DNA from: Escherichia phage GEP101
Sequence record: PQ036202
Strand: one strand, 5' to 3'
DNA length: 64,000 nt
Each line of letters opens with the position of its first letter. The stretch's first letter is position 1. Under the pieces are notes generated by a model. That model saw only the letters and a list, made by a program, of their open reading frames with translations. It made no database searches and was not told the DNA's origin. A program made the position numbers and the translations under genes. Positions 41,931-49,272 of this stretch are shown in pieces.

Positions 41931-41989
41931 GAAACTCTGTAGGATATTCACAATAGACTAAGCCTTTCTTATCTGGTAAATTTTTCAGG

Positions 41990-42195
41990 TAAGGAGGGCT
42001 TTTTCATTTCAGGATTGTGCAGGTAGAGTTCTATAGAGAAATCTGTAGAGAGAATTTTGAACTCCAAAGAGAAAATTCATTTTCAAACTGTGCAGGTAAT
42101 CTCCAAAGAGCTTTTTCATTTTCAAAACGTGCAGAGAAAAATCAGGTCGGGCAAGAAAAATCATTTTAGAATTGTGCAGGTAGGTGGGTGCAGGT
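41990..42195. repeat. four ~40-bp direct repeats (TTTTCATTTTCAAA-CTGTGCAGGTA units)
   Basis: Repeated units beginning near 41990, 42060, 42102 and 42150, in a non-coding gap. Confidence 0.6.
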
Positions 42196-42359: not shown

Positions 42360-42452
42360 TTGACTATTCGAACGGGGTTATCTAGTATTTGCATCAACGG
42401 GGAGGAAATGACTTCCCCACTAAATAAAACCCTTAAACTAGGAGATTCTAAA
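42360..42452 (+). promoter_or_regulatory. promoter-hairpin-RBS cassette (type A, divergent copy)
   Basis: TTGACT-17-TAGTAT, GGGGAGG...CTTCCCC hairpin, conserved CCTTAAACTAGGAGATTCTAAAATG. Confidence 0.55.
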
Positions 42453-42644
42453 ATGGCATCAAGAAAAATCAAAGTTGGCGACGAGGTTAACGTAAAACAT
42501 GAATACTCTTACAAAATGTTAACTATTCGCTCTTACAAGGTTTATCAGGTGGAAGCTATCCACGAAGATGGAACATTTTCACTAAAAGGATATAGTGAAC
42601 GTTTCCCTGCTGAATTGTTCGAAAAATGGAGCACTAAAAAATGA
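42453..42644 (+). CDS. hypothetical small protein (cassette-array gene)
   Basis: Start reassigned to ATG 42453 behind conserved RBS. Confidence 0.55.
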   Translation: MASRKIKVGDEVNVKHEYSYKMLTIRSYKVYQVEAIHEDGTFSLKGYSERFPAELFEKWSTKK

Positions 42645-42847
42645 TTTACAGCCGTGAATTGATGGCCACAACTAACGTTAACACAAAGGTAAAACGTTTT
42701 TATATGCAAGTATGCGGCGCATGGCGTAGAATATCAGAATCTGACTATTGCAACTATGTAGAAACGGCTATTAATTCTAATTGCTATCTTACAAGAACTA
42801 CACGGAATTTTATAAAACATACAGCGGTTTACTATTACGATAAATAA
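42641..42847 (+). CDS. hypothetical small protein (cassette-array gene)
   Basis: ATGA start/stop overlap with previous gene. Confidence 0.45.
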   Translation: MIYSRELMATTNVNTKVKRFYMQVCGAWRRISESDYCNYVETAINSNCYLTRTTRNFIKHTAVYYYDK

Positions 42848-42935
42848 AAAGTACTTTACAAGGGGCTTAAAAGTTGATATCTTAAGCCCCAGAAAAAGAG
42901 CTTTACTAACAACCTTAAACTAGGAGATTCAAAAA
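42848..42935 (+). promoter_or_regulatory. type B intergenic element (palindrome + conserved RBS leader)
   Basis: AAAGTACTTTACA, 9-bp-stem palindrome GGGGCTTAA...TTAAGCCCC, AGAAAAAGAGCTTTA, CCTTAAACTAGGAGATTC; four copies. Confidence 0.5.
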
Positions 42936-43316
42936 ATGGCTTATCGTGCACCGAAATTCATCAACAAAGACAACTTTCGCAACGTACTGGAAAAGACACT
43001 TGATGAAAAATTTAACAGCAAATTGATTGTTGTTCACGCATTTAATTTCAAGTATGATATCAACGGGAATAAAATCAATCATTACACGGCAACAATGGTA
43101 GATGGTACACTATCAAGTGAAAAAGCCATACTGAATGCGCTTGCTGGACGTGGTAAAAACCTGATAAGATGTGATAAGAGACGTTATCAAGGCGGCGCAT
43201 ATGGTTATGATGATACTGTTTACCATCTTGAAAATATGGGCTATCAAGTAGAAAAAGCTGGAGTGTCGCAAATCATTGGTAGCGATGGTTATGTGACAAT
43301 CTTCAAAATTAAATAA
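42936..43316 (+). CDS. hypothetical protein (cassette-array gene)
   Basis: 126 aa behind type B element. Confidence 0.5.
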   Translation: MAYRAPKFINKDNFRNVLEKTLDEKFNSKLIVVHAFNFKYDINGNKINHYTATMVDGTLSSEKAILNALAGRGKNLIRCDKRRYQGGAYGYDDTVYHLENMGYQVEKAGVSQIIGSDGYVTIFKIK

Positions 43317-43405
43317 AAAGTACTTTACAGGGGGCTTATAAGGCTGTACAGTAAGCCCCAGATAAAGAGCTTTATCACTCAATCCTTAAACTAGGAGATT
43401 CAAAA
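43317..43405 (+). promoter_or_regulatory. type B intergenic element
   Basis: Copy 2 of palindrome + leader. Confidence 0.5.
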
Positions 43406-43918
43406 ATGAAAACTGTAGACGCTACCTTTGAAGTTGTAAAAGAAAAATTCACCATTATTTATGAGGCTGTTAATTGCTACGAAGCAAGCTATAATATGGA
43501 TAATTGGGAATTTACAAACAACCATAAAGGCGGGGTAACTATCAAAAATCCTAACTATCGACACAATGCATTTAAATATGCAATCCCTTTACATTACAGC
43601 CTAAAACAGCTTTCAAGTGACTATGCAAAACAAGGCCGTGAAAATCCATCGAAAGAGGCTTACATCAGCTTACAGAAAGAACTAGAAAGAGATTTAGAGG
43701 CTTCAGAATATTACCTATCTGCAAAAGTTGTAGACGCAAACGGGAAAACGGTTTTAGATAGTTTTTCTATTGGTTACGCTTTCGATTGGTGCTATAGCGA
43801 CGGCGTCGATTTAGCGGATAGACTAGAAGAGGAAGTGAGCAATTCAGGCGCAGAATCTGAAGTTATGGAACAATTAGAAGCCTTAAAAGATTCAGTGCTG
43901 AATATCTTTCAAAATTAA
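43406..43918 (+). CDS. hypothetical protein (cassette-array gene)
   Basis: 170 aa. Confidence 0.5.
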   Translation: MKTVDATFEVVKEKFTIIYEAVNCYEASYNMDNWEFTNNHKGGVTIKNPNYRHNAFKYAIPLHYSLKQLSSDYAKQGRENPSKEAYISLQKELERDLEASEYYLSAKVVDANGKTVLDSFSIGYAFDWCYSDGVDLADRLEEEVSNSGAESEVMEQLEALKDSVLNIFQN

Positions 43919-43934
43919 ATTAAGAGGAAACACC

Positions 43935-44267
43935 ATGTTAATGATGGGTATCACTGCAATCATCGCCATTATAGCACTTTACAAGGCTTATAGCGCATAT
44001 AATTTGGCAAGTAAGGCAATCACACAACAGGTTAGCGATAGCCTTGTAATGAGCTTTCTTGGGCGTTTAAGCGATGAGCAATTGAAACGGCTAGAAATGA
44101 GCTTCAGATTTCAATCAAAAACTTATCAAATCAGCGACATTTTCAAAGAGGATTTTCAGCTTGTCGATGATTATAACTCCCTGATAAATGCTTTAAATAT
44201 CAGTGACTTAAAAGATTATTACGCTGTAATTGTTCAAGAAATGAGCAAACGAAAACAAAACAGTTGA
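43935..44267 (+). CDS. hypothetical protein (cassette-array gene), N-terminal TM helix
   Basis: 110 aa, own AGAGGAAA RBS. Confidence 0.45.
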   Translation: MLMMGITAIIAIIALYKAYSAYNLASKAITQQVSDSLVMSFLGRLSDEQLKRLEMSFRFQSKTYQISDIFKEDFQLVDDYNSLINALNISDLKDYYAVIVQEMSKRKQNS

Positions 44268-44356
44268 CACTGATTTTTAGATATATTAAATTACACATCA
44301 ACGGGGAGGGAATGACCTCCCCCACTAAGTAAAACCTTAAACTAGGAGATTCAAAA
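44264..44356 (+). promoter_or_regulatory. promoter-hairpin-RBS cassette (type A)
   Basis: TTGACA-17-TAAATT, hairpin GGGGAGGGAATGACCTCCCCC, identical RBS/start context. Confidence 0.55.
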
Positions 44357-44629
44357 ATGTATACTACTAACAATGGCCGTACTCTAAATGTCACTCTACG
44401 CCACTATGTAGACGGCGTGATGAACTTTGAGGATTTACAAGCGGAACAACATATTTTGGATTGGCAACTTGCTGGATTCCAAAAAACTGCTACGGGATAT
44501 GGTAAAAAGATTCCAACTAGTTGGAAAGTATACTATAAAGGCCGTTTGCGCAGAATTTATCAGGATGTTTGCAGCAATAGCGCATCAACCTACATCATAG
44601 TAAAAGGTAAAAAATTACACTTAGTATAG
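44357..44629 (+). CDS. hypothetical small protein (cassette-array gene)
   Basis: 90 aa. Confidence 0.5.
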   Translation: MYTTNNGRTLNVTLRHYVDGVMNFEDLQAEQHILDWQLAGFQKTATGYGKKIPTSWKVYYKGRLRRIYQDVCSNSASTYIIVKGKKLHLV

Positions 44630-44717
44630 AGTACTTTATAAGGGGCTTATAGTTCGATAAAGTAAGCCCCAGAAAAAGAGCTTTATCGCATTAACCTTAA
44701 ACTAGGAGATTCAAAAA
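44630..44717 (+). promoter_or_regulatory. type B intergenic element
   Basis: Copy 3. Confidence 0.5.
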
Positions 44718-45122
44718 ATGGCTATCAATAAACGCGAGTTATCAATTTTAAAAGCACGTTTGACCGTTAACCGGATTAATGTTATCACGTCAGCAGCACC
44801 GGATGAAATACTACAAAACATTATTGGGAAGATTCAAAGTGTTATCTTAGACGTTGAAAGCGTAAAAAACTCACTGATTGACGTTGCAGCAGGTATCACG
44901 CTAGAAGGTGCACAATATGAAATGGTGGACATGTTAGGTAAATCTAAGGTAATGAATAGGGAGTTAGATTTGAAAATGTTTCGTTTTGCTGTTAAAGTAT
45001 GGCTATCCGTCGAGTATGGCGCGAATTTTGCAATCGCTGACTTTTTCGCAACATGGTTACAACGTAATTTGACAAATCATGATTTTCGTGATATCTGCGA
45101 TGCAATTTATGCAGAAATCTAA
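44718..45122 (+). CDS. hypothetical protein (cassette-array gene)
   Basis: 134 aa. Confidence 0.5.
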   Translation: MAINKRELSILKARLTVNRINVITSAAPDEILQNIIGKIQSVILDVESVKNSLIDVAAGITLEGAQYEMVDMLGKSKVMNRELDLKMFRFAVKVWLSVEYGANFAIADFFATWLQRNLTNHDFRDICDAIYAEI

Positions 45123-45132
45123 AAATTTTTTA

Positions 45133-45227
45133 TTGACACTGATTTTTAGATATATTAAATTACTAATCAACGGGGAGGGAATGACCTCCCCCACTAAGTA
45201 AAGTCCTTAAACTAGGAGATTCTAAAA
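45133..45227 (+). promoter_or_regulatory. promoter-hairpin-RBS cassette (type A)
   Basis: Near-identical to 44264-44356. Confidence 0.55.
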
Positions 45228-45425
45228 ATGGCTATTATTAACGGTTTAAACATTGAAACTACTCACATCAAAGATATCAAAGTCGGCGATATAGTCCTTT
45301 TTCACGGCGTAGAAAAAACCGTCACTGTAAAGGATATCAAAGAGGATTCTTTCATGGGCCGGACTCTTTTCGGTGATTCGTATTGCTTAGGCTATCTTGC
45401 AGTTTTAAAAGTTGTCAAAAATTAA
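45228..45425 (+). CDS. hypothetical small protein (cassette-array gene)
   Basis: 65 aa. Confidence 0.45.
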   Translation: MAIINGLNIETTHIKDIKVGDIVLFHGVEKTVTVKDIKEDSFMGRTLFGDSYCLGYLAVLKVVKN

Positions 45426-45518
45426 ATAAAAAGTACTTTACAGGGGGCTTAAAAGCTGATATCTTAAGCCCTAGATAAAGAGCTTTATCACTCAATCCTT
45501 AAACTAGGAGATTCTAAA
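45426..45518 (+). promoter_or_regulatory. type B intergenic element
   Basis: Copy 4. Confidence 0.5.
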
Positions 45519-46061
45519 ATGAAATGCTTTCACGGTACTACTCAAGAAAATTTTATCAACCTGATTAATAACGGTGATAAACCATCAGGCGCATGGAATT
45601 GTTCGGATATGGACGGGAATTTTTACGTTTATCCAGAAAATAAAATCTATGGCGACGATGAGGAAGAGATAATCTCTGAAGGTATCCAGCAAGCTCTGGG
45701 CAATGCCGCTATCACCGCAGCTTTCCAGATGAAAACTCAAAATATTGTTATCTTAGAACTTGATATTCCAGAAGATGAGTTAAATGATGATTATTCTTGC
45801 GATAATATGTCGAACATGGCAAGTTTTACGGAATATTTCGATTTAAACTGGATTAAAAAGGTTTATACCACTGAATTTAATGCTATGTTTTCGCCTTTTT
45901 GTCTTCCTTCACTGGATAACCCAAATTTAAATTATATTGATGAGTCTCTGGAACTTCTCGCTAAAAGCGTTCAACAGTTCGACAGTATTCAAGTTTTTTG
46001 GGACATCATGGACACACTGACGGGAAACATCGCAGAAAGAGATTTAAAGGGCTTTTTCTAA
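45519..46061 (+). CDS. hypothetical protein (cassette-array gene)
   Basis: 180 aa, acidic. Confidence 0.5.
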   Translation: MKCFHGTTQENFINLINNGDKPSGAWNCSDMDGNFYVYPENKIYGDDEEEIISEGIQQALGNAAITAAFQMKTQNIVILELDIPEDELNDDYSCDNMSNMASFTEYFDLNWIKKVYTTEFNAMFSPFCLPSLDNPNLNYIDESLELLAKSVQQFDSIQVFWDIMDTLTGNIAERDLKGFF

Positions 46062-46091
46062 AACCTATACAATCACCTTATAAACACTATT

Positions 46092-46113
46092 CAGCCCCTT
46101 GTAGGGGCTTTTA
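46092..46113 (+). terminator. rho-independent terminator
   Basis: AGCCCC-TTGT-AGGGGCT then TTTT. Confidence 0.55.
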
Positions 46114-46126
46114 AAGGGCTTAAAAC

Positions 46127-46360
46127 ATGCTTACAACCATTTATCTCATCCTTTCTATCTGTAACGGTCATTCATGTGATTTTAAAGGTCTCGAGGAGTT
46201 TACAGGGAGTAAAGAAAATGCTATTCAGGTTTGCCAGATAGCAAGACAAGACTACCCCGCCAGTGATGATATACAATGTTATTTTAAGACAGAAGACAGT
46301 GACGGCGTTTATTTTGACAGTGTTGACGGTCAATATGAAATTATCATAGAAAAAGACTAG
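46127..46360 (+). CDS. hypothetical small protein (cassette-array gene)
   Basis: 77 aa. Confidence 0.45.
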   Translation: MLTTIYLILSICNGHSCDFKGLEEFTGSKENAIQVCQIARQDYPASDDIQCYFKTEDSDGVYFDSVDGQYEIIIEKD

Positions 46361-46451
46361 ACAAGCCGGATAAAAGTCTGTAAATTACTAATTAACGGGG
46401 AGGGGATGACCTTCCCCACTAAGTAAAGCCCTTAAACTAGGAGATTCAAAA
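46358..46451 (+). promoter_or_regulatory. promoter-hairpin-RBS cassette (type A variant)
   Basis: TAGACA-17-TAAATT, hairpin GGGGAGGGGATGACCTTCCCC, conserved RBS. Confidence 0.5.
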
Positions 46452-46793
46452 ATGGCTTATGTAACCGTAATCACCGACAAGGTTGGCTCATCTTGGTCAA
46501 CTCAAGTAAGCGATAAGATGACACCTATGCAGTGCCTAAAATACTTTGAGCAATGGAATAAAGGCGAAGGTGTCAGCCCCTTTCAAGTGATGCGTATCGT
46601 TCACACTGACAAGGAAGGGAATAAAACGGCCTTAAATAGTGAGTACTACGCAACCAGATTCGAAACTAGAAGTAAAACAATGAAACTTTTACGTGAATCC
46701 GGTTATACCCATATCGCCGCATTAATCTGGGATGACTTGCTAAAAAACCAACGTATCAGCTATGTAAAACCTGAAAAAATATTTATCAGCTAA
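46452..46793 (+). CDS. hypothetical protein (cassette-array gene)
   Basis: 113 aa. Confidence 0.5.
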   Translation: MAYVTVITDKVGSSWSTQVSDKMTPMQCLKYFEQWNKGEGVSPFQVMRIVHTDKEGNKTALNSEYYATRFETRSKTMKLLRESGYTHIAALIWDDLLKNQRISYVKPEKIFIS

Positions 46794-46923: not shown

Positions 46924-47017
46924 TTGCAATCAGCTATCAAAACAAGTAAATTACTAATTAACGGGGAGGGGATGACCTTCCCCACTAAGTAAAGTCCTTA
47001 AACTAGGAGATTCAAAA
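46924..47017 (+). promoter_or_regulatory. promoter-hairpin-RBS cassette (type A variant)
   Basis: TTGCAA-17-TAAATT, hairpin, conserved RBS. Confidence 0.5.
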
Positions 47018-47548
47018 ATGAACAAGTTCAAAGCCATCAATTACATCCGCTCAAATAGTGTTATGTCAAAGCCTGTTAAAGACACCTATGAATTCCGTTG
47101 TAATGGTGTACACTTTGCAACCATCACCAAATCAGAAAACGGGGCTTATTACATTCATCGCCGTAATGTTGCAACCGTTGTAGTCTCTCATTTTATGCAA
47201 GCTGTCGCGGAACTCCTCCCGATGTTTTTAGGCCTTTACTTGGATGAGTGCAAAAACGTTCACAATCACGTTAAAAACCTTTTAAATAGTTATAAAATGG
47301 CTTATGAACGTTCTCTCAAGTCATTGAACAAGTTTTACAACGCACCTGAAAACACCATATCAATGGCCTATGCTGTAAATGGTGAAACAGTGAGTCTCTT
47401 TGAAGTGGAAAAAATCAAGCTGTACGATTTACTCCCTAGCGGTTACGCTAAAACCATCGGTGAAGGCTTAACGTTCAATATCAAGAACTTAGAAAAAACT
47501 TTAAAAGATATTGAAAAAGATATTGACGAGACAATCAAAAATCTATAA
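47018..47548 (+). CDS. hypothetical protein (cassette-array gene)
   Basis: 176 aa; last gene before non-coding repeat region. Confidence 0.5.
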   Translation: MNKFKAINYIRSNSVMSKPVKDTYEFRCNGVHFATITKSENGAYYIHRRNVATVVVSHFMQAVAELLPMFLGLYLDECKNVHNHVKNLLNSYKMAYERSLKSLNKFYNAPENTISMAYAVNGETVSLFEVEKIKLYDLLPSGYAKTIGEGLTFNIKNLEKTLKDIEKDIDETIKNL

Positions 47549-49272
47549 ATTGTCAATCAACGGGGCTAAAATAGCCCCAGATACCTTTTACAGCCCCTTT
47601 CCATATTGATTCGATAGAATCTATCTCATAGGGGCTTTTTTACGTCCTATCAAATCCCTTTCCCTTTCCCTTTCCAGAATCTATCCCACTAATTCGATAG
47701 AATCTATCTCATACCTTAAAAAGCAATAACTCTATAGCTTACTCTATAGCCTTTTATTAAATCAACTTAAATAAAAGCCAATACCCCCAGAAAGGGGATG
47801 GCCCATTTAAACGCTCTATAAAGCCCTATAACGGCCTTATTAACATAACTTAAGGGATTGCATTAACTCACCATTAAAAGCCCTTTATAAAGCTTTCTAG
47901 GGGCTTAAAAGAGCCTTAAAAGAATCTTATAAGGGTGTAAGCTTTATCATCTCGTTAGTTATCTTATTGGCATTGTTACAATTCCTAGTGAACTACTAAA
48001 AAGGGCTTGCTAGTGTCTTAAAAGTATGTTATAGGGGCTATAAAGTTGCTTAAAAGTAGCTTAAAAGTTACTTCAAAGTTACTTCAAAGTTACGTAAATG
48101 CTAGCCCCCTTAACAATTTCTTAACAAATCCTACAAAGTTATGCTTATTAGAGACTTGTTAGCAACTTGTTAGCCCCTTGTTAAATCTCTGTTAAAACCA
48201 TGTAAAGCCTTGTAAGAACCTTTGACATAGCCTTTAAAGCTCCTGAAAAGCCCTATAAAGAGCTTTCTACATAGTTGGGGTGCAATTACTAGGGAGAGAC
48301 TAAAAAGGGCTTATAAAGAGCTATAGAGAGCTTTTAAGAGGGCTATTTAAAGAATCACTAAGAGGGAAAGGGAACGATAAGAAAGAGATAGTGACCATGT
48401 TAATGGCTTGTTAAAAAGTTTAAACACTTGTTAGAAACTTGTTAATTATCTTAACAAAATAACTCTTAAAAATTAACTTCTTAACTCTTGTTAGTCATCT
48501 GTTAAGACTCTGTAAAGACCATGTAGCAACTGTTAAGGAACTGTTACATCCTTGTTAGTTCTGTTGAGAATCTGTTAAGACCTTTGAAGAGTTGTTAAGA
48601 AGATGTGAGAACTGTTAAGAGATTGTTAATGATATTTTAAAATTTTGCAAAGGGGGTGTTACAGGGATGTTAAGGGCTACCAAGCAGATATACATCTTTT
48701 ACAGATATTTTTGAGTTCCTTCAAAGACCCTAAAAAATGACTTGATAGTCCTATTTTATAAAAATTTTAAAATTCTGAATAATTACCTATACAGTCTTCT
48801 AAAAATACAGGCATAAACAGGCTTATAAGATACCTTGTTAATACCGTGTTAGACCTTGTGAGATAAGGTCTGCAAAGATATTCCTGTTAAGTTTGTTAAA
48901 ACAGTCTATATAGAGGCTTAGTAATACCTAGTGAACACCTATAGAGGGTAACATAGCTGACATAGAGATTAAGAGGTGTATAGGGGCTTCTAAGAGGTTA
49001 TAGAGAGATGGTTAAGGTGATTGTATAGGTTGTTAAGAAGGCTTGTTAGAAGAGTGTTTAGAAGGGCTATACAGAGGGGCTATTAAGACCACTAGATAGA
49101 TACTAAGATACTATATAGTACTATATAACTATATATAGAGAGTAAGCTTAAGAAGGTTGTTAAGAAGGGTAGATATTTTTATTCACATATGATGGTGACC
49201 CAGAGGTTGGGACAACCGATGAAATTTTATAAAAATTAAAAAGCCCCCAATTAAGGAGGCTCTTAAGATATT
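47549..49272. repeat. 1.7-kb ORF-free region with arrays of ~11-bp phased short motifs
   Basis: No ORF of 60 aa or more on any frame; TGTTAAG/TGTTAGC-type runs at ~11-bp spacing (48150-48200, 48400-48650), TATAAAGAG/TAAGAGG runs (48240-48360, 48910-49140), 11-bp x5 repeat at 48030-48100, 21-bp direct repeat at ~47608/47693, (CCCTTT)3. Confidence 0.7.

What the first reader, a model, noticed from the sequence alone, without database searches (positions are those of the whole stretch)
42848..45518. Four copies of a second conserved intergenic element with a 9-bp-stem palindrome
An 88-93 bp unit (AAAGTACTTTACA - GGGGCTTAA..TTAAGCCCC - AGAAAAAGAGCTTTATC - CCTTAAACTAGGAGATTC) precedes genes at 42936, 43406, 44718 and 45519, alternating with the promoter cassettes. 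The hairpin is not followed by a U-tract on either strand, so it is unlikely to be an intrinsic terminator. It may be an RNA processing or stability element, a protein-binding site, or a recombination hotspot. A degenerate copy lies at about 47890.
Basis: seen in the sequence. Interest (0 to 1): 0.45.

Follow-up and report, generated by a model that had tools for sequence, protein, structure and literature searches.

The report
Promoter-plus-hairpin cassettes before phage early genes
The four repeats are self-contained gene-expression cassettes (a host-type promoter wrapped in a hairpin, then a ribosome-binding site) in front of small early genes of a Felix O1-like phage. This kind of cassette is already known from T4-like phages, so the finding is real but fairly ordinary.

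Summary
The window holds exactly four copies of an 88-90 bp unit (42848-42935, 43317-43405, 44628-44717, 45430-45518), each just upstream of a small + strand gene in the early cluster of a Felixounavirus.

TTTACA, a 17-bp spacer and TAnnnT sit inside the hairpin. In 89 unique copies from four Ounavirinae genera, chosen only by their downstream block, all carry TTTA[CT]A. 88 of the 89 carry TAnnnT at 17-18 bp, with 14 different hexamers.

The hairpin is also under selection:
- there are compensatory GC<->UA changes;
- deviations are almost all G.U wobbles on the + strand;
- a 10-bp lower stem extends the 9-bp stem across a 4x4 internal loop.

Gene gains and losses between related phages break at these cassettes.

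The stop codon in an AT tract, sigma70 boxes, polyG/polyC stem-loop overlapping the -10, Shine-Dalgarno and ATG, and flanking genes of unknown function all match the published PeSL ("promoter-early stem-loop") cassettes of phages RB49 and phi1. I found no paper describing them in Felix O1-like phages.

Verdict: a new member of a known kind, of modest interest. The hairpin's exact RNA role (attenuator, 3' protection or RNase III site) remains untested.

The parts
42848..42938 (+). Cassette B1, complete: lower stem to the ATG of gene 42936
   Evidence: 83.3 bits
43317..43408 (+). Cassette B2, complete, to the ATG of gene 43406
   Evidence: 76.6 bits
44628..44720 (+). Cassette B3, complete, to the ATG of gene 44718
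   Evidence: 76.2 bits
45430..45521 (+). Cassette B4, complete, to the ATG of gene 45519
   Evidence: 79.9 bits
42855..42883 (+). B1 predicted sigma70 promoter: -35 TTTACA (42855-42860), 17-bp spacer, TG at -15/-14, -10 TATCTT (42878-42883). The predicted start is A 42891.
43324..43352 (+). B2 predicted promoter: TTTACA, 17 bp, TACAGT. The predicted start is A 43360.
44635..44663 (+). B3 predicted promoter: TTTATA, 17 bp, TAAAGT. The predicted start is A 44671.
   Evidence: It has 8 of 12 consensus matches, below the threshold of the scan.
45437..45465 (+). B4 predicted promoter: TTTACA, 17 bp, TG, TATCTT. The predicted start is A 45473.
42862..42890 (+). B1 upper hairpin: GGGGCTTAA, 11-nt loop, TTAAGCCCC. 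The -10 lies in the loop and 3' arm.
43331..43359 (+). B2 upper hairpin: GGGGCTTAT, 11 nt, GTAAGCCCC (the top pair is U.G)
44642..44670 (+). B3 upper hairpin: GGGGCTTAT, 11 nt, GTAAGCCCC
45444..45472 (+). B4 upper hairpin: GGGGCTTAA, 11 nt, TTAAGCCCT (the closing pair is G.U)
42848..42857 (+). B1 lower-stem 5' half AAAGTACTTT. It directly follows the TAA stop of gene 42641-42847 and overlaps the -35.
42895..42904 (+). B1 lower-stem 3' half AAAGAGCTTT, part of the conserved block AGA(A/T)AAAGAGCTTTA at about +1 to +15
43317..43326 (+). B2 lower-stem 5' half
43364..43373 (+). B2 lower-stem 3' half
44628..44637 (+). B3 lower-stem 5' half AGAGTACTTT, overlapping the TAG stop of gene 44357-44629
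44675..44684 (+). B3 lower-stem 3' half
45430..45439 (+). B4 lower-stem 5' half
45477..45486 (+). B4 lower-stem 3' half
42914..42935 (+). B1 shared translation module: CTTAAACT-AGGAG-ATTCAAAAA (Shine-Dalgarno at 42922-42926)
43385..43405 (+). B2 shared translation module
44696..44717 (+). B3 shared translation module
45498..45518 (+). B4 shared translation module
42360..42455 (+). Sister cassette A1: TTGACT, 17 bp, TAGTAT, then the leader hairpin GGGGAGG..CTTCCCC and the same translation module
44264..44359 (+). Sister cassette A2: TTGACA, 17 bp, TAAATT, then the hairpin at 44303-44323 and the translation module
45133..45230 (+). Sister cassette A3
46358..46454 (+). Sister cassette A4 (TAGACA, 17 bp, TAAATT)
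46924..47020 (+). Sister cassette A5 (TTGCAA, 17 bp, TAAATT)

Best explanation
Each unit is a composite expression cassette of the PeSL (promoter-early stem-loop) type. It does three things.

(1) As DNA it is a host sigma70 early promoter. It has an A-rich upstream tract, a -35 TTTACA, a 17-bp spacer, often TG at -15/-14, and a -10 TAnnnT. Transcription should start at the A about 8 nt after the -10 (42891, 43360, 44671, 45473). The resulting leader is 45-47 nt long, begins AGA(U/A)AAAGAGCUUUA and ends in the shared AGGAG ribosome-binding module. Each small gene therefore has its own promoter.

(2) In transcripts that arrive from the cassette upstream, the same DNA is transcribed into a two-part hairpin. 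A 10-bp lower stem, a 4x4 internal loop, a 9-bp GGGG..CCCC upper stem and an 11-nt loop give about -19 to -22 kcal/mol. The hairpin begins right after the upstream stop codon. It most likely insulates neighbouring units by attenuating read-through, by protecting the upstream mRNA's 3' end, or by being cut.

(3) The nine cassettes share about 25 identical bases at their 3' ends, and the four B cassettes share about 90. They therefore act as sites of homologous recombination, through which genes of unknown function are gained, lost and re-headed.

What is shown: the conserved promoter geometry, base-pair conservation with compensatory changes, the wobble bias towards the + strand, and breakpoints at cassettes.

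What is inferred: promoter activity, the start site, and what the hairpin does in RNA.
For: Promoter:
- 109 of 109 copies chosen only by the downstream block plus a ribosome-binding site have TTTA[CT]A.
- 88 of 89 unique copies have TAnnnT at a 17-bp (85) or 18-bp (3) spacing. There are 14 different hexamers, all keeping T1, A2 and T6. TG precedes the hexamer in 52 of the 88 copies that have one.
- When the stem is one pair shorter, the spacing from -35 to -10 stays 17 while the distance to the downstream block shrinks.
- The generic promoter scan picks three of the four copies.
- Orthologous Felix O1 ORFs 13, 16, 20, 21 and 22 peak at 5 min after infection (PMC3185647).

Structure:
- 91.4% of cells are paired, against 33-60% for slid controls.
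- There are compensatory GC<->UA changes in both the upper and the lower stem.
- One pair is split 30 CG to 30 UG.
- In the upper stem, non-Watson-Crick cells are 39 G.U, 1 A.C and 5 other.
- The predicted fold reproduces the two-part helix, with z-scores of -2.9 to -4.4.

Recombination:
- 82 of 171 homology breakpoints fall inside cassettes that cover 16% of the region. Most of the rest lie within about 15 nt of a cassette, or at 43920, where relatives carry an extra cassette plus gene.
- There are explicit insertions in L163 and a deletion in L057, and a chimeric junction in phage Michonne.

Kinship with PeSL:
- The published definition matches feature by feature.
- phi1 cassettes read directly show AAAAAGTTGTTGACA-GGGG..CCCC-TATAAT-...-CTAGGAGAATCAAAATG.
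- The flanked genes have no Pfam family.
Against: - No transcript data exist for these sites, so promoter use and start sites are predictions.
- The -10 hexamers are weak (3-4 of 6 matches to TATAAT).
- Copies are paralogues and orthologues of each other. The counts are therefore not independent events, and the shuffle controls overstate significance.
- The hairpin lacks the U-rich tail that would make it a classical terminator. The 'terminator' activity reported for a phi1 stem-loop may not transfer.
- The lower stem is made of two copies of a self-complementary motif (AAAGnnCTTT), so part of its apparent pairing is automatic. Its support rests mainly on one compensatory change (72 G-C and 8 T-A, against 5 discordant T-C or G-A pairs and 4 other combinations).
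Confidence: 0.75

Rival explanations
1. A pure RNA element with no promoter. The two-part helix is an RNase III processing site or stability hairpin within one long early transcript, like the sites between the early genes of phage T7.
For: A roughly 19-bp helix is interrupted by a symmetric internal loop, with compensatory changes in both stems and wobbles only on the + strand. No intrinsic terminators lie between the cassettes, so read-through RNA should contain it.
Against: It does not explain the invariant TTTACA. It does not explain the fixed 17-bp distance to an invariant TA...T that sits in an otherwise variable loop, or the frequent TG. Unrelated stems in Erwinia phages and in phi1 also wrap a -10 box. 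There is no Rfam match.
Confidence: 0.1
2. A DNA operator. The inverted repeat over the promoter core binds a dimeric phage or host protein that switches these promoters off or on.
For: The palindrome covers the spacer, the -10 and the start site, which is a classic repressor position. The GGGCTTA motif recurs in the non-coding region at 47.9-48.3 kb.
Against: The arms are persistently asymmetric as DNA: T opposite G in half of the copies, and an A-C mismatch almost never. At least eight different arm sequences occur, several within one genome. Compensatory changes keep pairing rather than a fixed half-site.
Confidence: 0.05
3. Only a recombination linker or selfish repeat. The conserved block spreads by duplication and has no regulatory role.
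For: Breakpoints cluster at the cassettes and the cassettes are interchangeable upstream of the same gene.
Against: Position-specific conservation follows promoter and base-pairing rules across four genera at 70-75% flanking identity. A mere homology patch would not preserve these.
Confidence: 0.05
4. An intrinsic (rho-independent) terminator for the upstream gene.
For: A G+C-rich stem lies directly after a stop codon. The stem-loop of a phi1 PeSL reduced downstream lacZ as strongly as rrnB T1 (PMC2839356).
Against: The stem is followed by AGA(U/A)AAAGAG, with one U or none in the first eight bases. The scan finds no terminator-like site here on either strand.
Confidence: 0.03

Closest known systems
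PeSL (promoter-early stem-loop) cassettes of T4-type phages RB49 and phi1, also PST/T4 and nt-1/KVP40 (Arbiol et al. 2010, PMC2839356; Comeau et al. 2014, PMC4122927)
   Same: - The upstream stop codon lies in an AT-rich tract.
- There is a sigma70-type -35 and -10.
- A stable stem-loop with a G-run and a C-run sits between or over the boxes.
- G-T pairs occur in the stems.
- A Shine-Dalgarno sequence and ATG sit at the 3' end.
- About 100 bp is conserved.
- The cassettes lie upstream of small genes of unknown function in a variable region.
- Gene gain and loss occurs by recombination between cassettes.
- There is short sequence resemblance: AAAAAGTnnTTnACAGGGG and CTAGGAGAnTCAAnnATG.
   Different: - The phage lineage differs: Ounavirinae, not Straboviridae.
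- The -35 is TTTACA rather than TTGACA, and the -10 is weaker.
- The stem-loop is longer (29 nt) and runs from just after the -35 to the start site.
- There is an additional 10-bp lower stem and an invariant AGATAAAGAGCTTTA block, neither seen in phi1.
- No U-rich sequence follows the stem.
- Promoter, terminator and mini-circle activities are untested here.
RNase III processing sites between the early genes of phage T7 (for example R1.1); from my own knowledge
   Same: An intercistronic hairpin of about two helical turns, split by an internal loop, in an early transcript made by the host polymerase.
   Different: T7 sites contain no promoter. Cleavage is not shown here, and the sequence rules for RNase III were not evaluated.
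Promoter-inside-hairpin arrangements of phage T4 (genes e, soc, 49, I-TevI); from my own knowledge
   Same: A promoter lies within a sequence that forms a hairpin only in longer transcripts from upstream. Transcripts from the two origins therefore differ in structure.
   Different: In T4 the hairpin hides the ribosome-binding site. Here that site lies about 20 nt beyond the structure and is not paired in the predicted folds.
PeSL-like cassettes in Seunavirus phage 4MG (seen here, L182)
   Same: Each small gene is preceded by TTGACA-type boxes with a G+C hairpin in the spacer or just after the -10. One such gene is a distant homologue of window gene 43406.
   Different: The stems and leader are different. 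As far as I found, these cassettes are not described in the literature.

Membership tests
PeSL cassette | Stop codon of the upstream gene lies in an AT-rich tract just upstream of the -35 | tested here: met
   Stops are at 42845-47, 43314-16, 44627-29 and 45423-25, which is 0-4 nt before the element (or overlapping it in B3), within AAATAAAAAG-type tracts.
PeSL cassette | sigma70-like -35 and -10 boxes at promoter spacing | tested here: met
   TTTA[CT]A is present in 109 of 109 copies. TAnnnT lies at 17-18 bp in 88 of 89 unique copies. This is sequence evidence only.
PeSL cassette | Stable stem-loop, often polyG..polyC, between or overlapping the boxes | tested here: met
   GGGG..CCCC stem of 8-9 pairs, running from 1 nt after the -35 to the start site, with the -10 in the loop and 3' arm.
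PeSL cassette | Shine-Dalgarno and start codon at the 3' end | tested here: met
   CTTAAACTAGGAGATTC occurs 9 times, each 5-6 nt before an ATG.
PeSL cassette | Concentrated in a variable region, upstream of small genes of unknown function | tested here: met
   Ten flanked proteins have no Pfam hit and fall only in PHROGs of unknown function. Gene content differs among close relatives.
PeSL cassette | Recombination between cassettes shuffles genes | tested here: met
   82 of 171 breakpoints fall inside cassettes, against 16% expected. There are explicit insertions, a deletion and a chimeric junction. Mini-circles could not be tested.
PeSL cassette | Promoter is strong and the stem-loop attenuates upstream transcription in vivo | not testable with these tools
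   This needs reporter fusions or transcript mapping. No U-tract follows the stem.
PeSL cassette | Sequence relationship to RB49/phi1 PeSLs | tested here: inconclusive
   The best local scores for most cassettes exceed the shuffles: B2 scores 46 against a shuffle mean of 25 and maximum of 40; A3 scores 41 against a maximum of 32. B3 (33 against a maximum of 39) does not exceed them. The shared parts are the functional boxes, so convergence is not excluded. The authors themselves accept non-homologous analogues.
RNase III processing site (T7 type) | About 20 bp of double-stranded RNA, commonly split by an internal loop | tested here: met
   10 + 9 pairs with a 4x4 loop, covariation in both stems, z-scores of -2.9 to -4.4.
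RNase III processing site (T7 type) | Cleavage by RNase III | not testable with these tools
   This needs an rnc mutant comparison or an in vitro assay.
Intrinsic terminator | G+C-rich hairpin followed directly by a U-tract | tested here: not met
   The stem is followed by AGA(A/T)AAAGAG. There are no hits at the elements on either strand.
Operator of a dimeric DNA-binding protein | Two-fold symmetric half-sites of constant sequence | tested here: not met
   One pair is split 30 CG to 30 TG. There are at least eight arm variants. Deviations preserve RNA pairing, not DNA symmetry.
T4 middle promoter (MotA box) | TGCTTtA box about 12 bp upstream of the -10 (from my own knowledge) | tested here: not met
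   TGCTTTA is present in Mooglevirus and Kolesnikvirus copies but lies 19 bp from the -10. The window has TACTTTA.

The most novel reading that the evidence does not exclude
The element is dual-coded: a promoter embedded in an RNase III-type processing helix. Initiation at the promoter, and cleavage of read-through RNA in the 3' side of the internal loop, would then give nearly the same mRNA 5' end (AGAUAAAGAGC...). Each gene would be expressed as the same monocistronic message whichever promoter made it. In addition, these cassettes would belong to a common pool of mobile regulatory modules shared by unrelated virulent enterobacterial phages (Ounavirinae, Krischvirus, Seunavirus).
Probability: 0.2. 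Interest if true: 0.55.

Novelty: new member of a known kind. Interest (0 to 1): 0.3.

Why it matters
The Felix O1 genome paper states that it is unknown how transcription proceeds past terminators, or whether secondary promoters exist. It lists only five candidate promoters, none of them in this cluster.

Recognising nine PeSL-type cassettes here gives a concrete, testable transcription map for the early region of a phage group that is widely used for typing and biocontrol. It also explains why gene content in this region varies between close relatives.

The finding extends the PeSL concept beyond T4-like phages. This supports the idea that promoter-hairpin cassettes are a general device for plugging new genes into large virulent phage genomes. 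The cassettes are also ready-made strong early-expression modules for phage engineering.

Tried and rejected
- **Rfam** at a permissive threshold over 41.8-49.4 kb gave only three chance-level hits.
- **Intrinsic terminator** was rejected, because there is no T-run on either strand.
- **MotA-box middle promoter** was rejected. TGCTTTA occurs in some genera, but 19 bp rather than about 12 bp from the -10.
- **Operator palindrome** was rejected on DNA asymmetry and arm diversity.
- **Hairpin hiding the ribosome-binding site**: this does not appear in the predicted folds.
- **'Degenerate copy' near 47890** is not significant.
- **Scanning IMG/VR with the 14-mer GATAAAGAGCTTTA** returned mostly chance single hits. 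The 17-mer ribosome-binding module was more useful.
- **Literature**: the Felix O1, wV8, UAB_Phi87, AYO145A and Felixounavirus comparative papers, and the Bas63 essentiality paper, do not describe the element. No held paper contains both 'promoter early stem' and 'Felix O1'. The phiEa21-4 genome paper (Lehman 2009) is not held, so I could not check it.
- **tblastn of the window's small proteins against the phi1 variable region** found no shared genes.
- **+ versus - strand folding energy** differs only modestly (mean 1.1 kcal/mol; 53 copies favour + and 36 favour -). The strand assignment therefore rests mainly on the wobble bias.
Full report
**What the sequence is.** The region is 87-90% identical over its full length to many Felix O1-like phages of Escherichia and Salmonella. 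The intrinsic terminator at 41960-42001 has the sequence listed as t13 of Felix O1. The + strand cluster from 42.4 to 47.5 kb therefore corresponds to Felix O1 ORFs 14-23. RT-PCR in that paper shows ORFs 13, 16, 20, 21 and 22 peaking 5 min after infection. The cluster is thus an early-gene region of small genes. None of ten proteins tested has a Pfam family, and all fall in PHROGs of unknown function.

**Check of the observation.** The repeat finder returns one family of four copies. The palindrome GGGCTTA-N8-16-TAAGCCC occurs four times, against none in shuffles. The four units align at 83% mean column identity. A covariance model built from relatives finds exactly these four on the + strand (76-83 bits) and nothing else significant in 64 kb. 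Units are 88-90 bp up to the ATG. The supposed degenerate copy near 47890 shares only about 29 nt of the 5' part and is not significant. All four units end in a 17-nt module, CTTAAACTAGGAGATTC, that occurs nine times in the window.

**The element contains a promoter.** Reading the copies side by side shows TTTACA (TTTATA in copy 3), 17 bp, then TATCTT, TACAGT, TAAAGT or TATCTT. The -10 therefore lies in the loop and the 3' arm of the hairpin. The generic scan picks three of the four, two of them with TG before the -10.

To test this without circularity, I collected copies from the four genera of the Ounavirinae. These are Felixounavirus, Mooglevirus, Suspvirus and Kolesnikvirus. Copies were selected only by the downstream block GA[AT]AAAGAGCTTT plus a ribosome-binding site.
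- All 109 copies have TTTA[CT]A.
- Of 89 unique sequences, 85 have TAnnnT at 17 bp and 3 at 18 bp.
- There are 14 different hexamers, and the three internal positions vary freely.
- 52 of the 88 copies with a TAnnnT hexamer have TG at -15/-14.
- In the variant whose stem is one pair shorter, the distance from -35 to -10 stays 17 while the distance to the downstream block drops by one.

This is the signature of a sigma70 promoter. It is not explained by an RNA hairpin. The predicted start is the A about 8 nt after the -10, which is the first base of the conserved block AGA(T/A)AAAGAGCTTTA.

**The hairpin is also under selection, on the + strand.** I counted pairs on a 61-sequence alignment.
- 91.4% of cells are paired, against 33-60% when partners are slid.
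- Pair 20-46 switches GC to UA in the Erwinia phages.
- The top pair takes AU, UA, GC and UG.
- Pair 22-44 is CG in 30 sequences and UG in 30.
- In the upper stem, non-Watson-Crick cells are 39 G.U, 1 A.C and 5 other. An A.C on the + strand would be a G.U wobble on the - strand, so the bias points to a + strand single-stranded structure, meaning RNA.

A second, lower helix pairs AAAGTACTTT (which overlaps the -35) with AAAGAGCTTT downstream, across a 4x4 internal loop. It is the minimum-energy fold in all four copies (-18.6 to -21.7 kcal/mol, z-scores of -2.9 to -4.4). It shows one compensatory change: 72 G-C and 8 T-A, against 5 discordant T-C or G-A pairs and 4 other combinations. When elements are instead selected by their 5' half, 74 of 76 carry this downstream block.

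Two caveats apply. The copies are related to one another, so the counts are not independent events. The lower stem is also built from two copies of a self-complementary motif.

**The cassettes are recombination joints.** I aligned 41.9-47.7 kb with related contigs. Of 171 internal homology breakpoints, 82 fall inside cassettes that cover 16% of the span. Most of the rest lie within about 15 nt of a cassette, or at 43920. Three concrete cases follow.
- One relative (L163) has an extra cassette plus gene before B2, and another at 43920.
- Another relative (L057) lacks the window's genes at 42453-42847. There the A1 hairpin cassette is joined, through the shared module, to the gene that B1 precedes in the window.
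- Phage Michonne has a ribosome-binding module and ATG fused directly to CTTTACA.

**Comparison with what is known.** The description of PeSLs in phages RB49 and phi1 fits point for point:
- a stop codon in an AT-rich tract;
- sigma70 boxes;
- a polyG/polyC stem-loop placed between or over the boxes, in five positional subclasses;
- G-T pairs in the stems;
- a Shine-Dalgarno sequence and ATG;
- a preference for genes of unknown function in hyperplastic regions;
- shuffling by recombination between cassettes.

I read phi1 cassettes directly. A typical one is AAAAAGTTGTTGACA-GGGGATCGGGAGATCCCC-TATAAT-ACACACATACCGAAACGAA-CTAGGAGAATCAATCATG. Others have the stem over the -10 or after it. The element under study matches the 'overlapping the -10' subclass.

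Local alignment of most window cassettes to phi1 PeSLs exceeds shuffled controls, but the shared parts are the functional boxes. Similar cassettes precede small genes in phage 4MG, one of which is a distant homologue of window gene 43406.

I found no paper that describes such cassettes in Felix O1-like phages. The phiEa21-4 paper could not be read.

**Mechanism, and what remains open.**
- Shown by sequence: the promoter geometry, a conserved and covarying two-part helix on the + strand, and breakpoints at cassettes.
- Inferred: that host RNA polymerase starts at the predicted A, and that the helix insulates units in read-through RNA.

How the helix works is uncertain. The stem is not followed by a U-tract, so classical termination is unlikely, even though a phi1 stem-loop behaved as a strong terminator in a reporter. 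A roughly 19-bp helix with an internal loop resembles the T7 RNase III sites (my own knowledge). A cut in the 3' side of the loop would give almost the same 5' end as initiation would. That is the most novel reading still open.

Rivals rank below the PeSL reading, for the reasons given in their entries. They are an RNA-only element, an operator, a bare recombination linker and an intrinsic terminator.

**Verdict.** The element belongs to a known kind of regulatory cassette but in a phage group where it had not been reported, and it carries an extra lower stem. Interest is modest.

Noticed in passing
window 42360-42455, 44264-44359, 45133-45230, 46358-46454, 46924-47020: Five sister cassettes carry a consensus-like promoter (TTGACA-type, 17 bp, TAAATT). 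A leader hairpin GGGGAGGG-AATGA-CCTCCCCC then starts about 10 nt after the -10, so it sits at the very 5' end of the predicted mRNA. The same ribosome-binding module follows. This hairpin may act as a 5' stabiliser.
   Followed up: partly
window 47560-49270: About 1.7 kb without ORFs lies between the convergent + and - strand gene clusters. It is full of repeats with a 10-11 bp period (AAAGTTACTTA x5 at 48042-48098, ACTTGTTAGCA at 48154-48183, TCTGTTAAGAA at 48560-48629) and of GGGCTTAAAAG-like motifs. At least part of it (around 47.9 kb) is conserved in relatives. It could be a replication origin, a packaging site or a protein-binding array.
   Followed up: partly
window 42004-42183: Three tandem units of about 40-45 bp (..TCATTTTCAAACTGTGCAGGTA) lie between terminator t13 and the first cassette. 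They overlap a 66-aa - strand ORF (families D12 and D19).
   Followed up: no
L001 (Citrobacter phage Michonne) 7395-7521: A ribosome-binding module and ATG are fused directly to CTTTACA of the next cassette, beside two 258-bp genes. This looks like a tandem duplication made by recombination between cassettes.
   Followed up: partly
L002 upstream of 11432, 13928 and 14327; L182 upstream of 2192; L181 several: A leader motif CGAAAC(A/G)A recurs after the -10 in phiEa21-4, phi1 and 4MG. This includes a 14-nt identity, CGAAACAAACAACC, between phiEa21-4 and 4MG, which belong to different subfamilies.
   Followed up: partly
window 43919-43935 and 46062-46127: Genes 43935 and 46127 lack a cassette. 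At 43920 relatives carry an extra cassette plus gene, so the window appears to have lost one. Before gene 46127 there is a hairpin followed by four T, AGCCCCTTGTAGGGGCTTTT.
   Followed up: partly
hits H26 and H54: GenBank records named Campylobacter phage A132 and Staphylococcus phage SA1 carry this Felixounavirus element at 89-94% identity. They are probably mislabelled or contaminated assemblies.
   Followed up: no
window 43406-43918 and 45519-46061: These small early proteins have distant homologues (26-46% identity) outside the subfamily. They occur in Pseudomonas Pakpunavirus phages, in Vibrio phages of about 140 kb, and in Seunavirus-like phages of Escherichia, Klebsiella and Salmonella. 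This suggests that such genes move between phage groups.
   Followed up: partly
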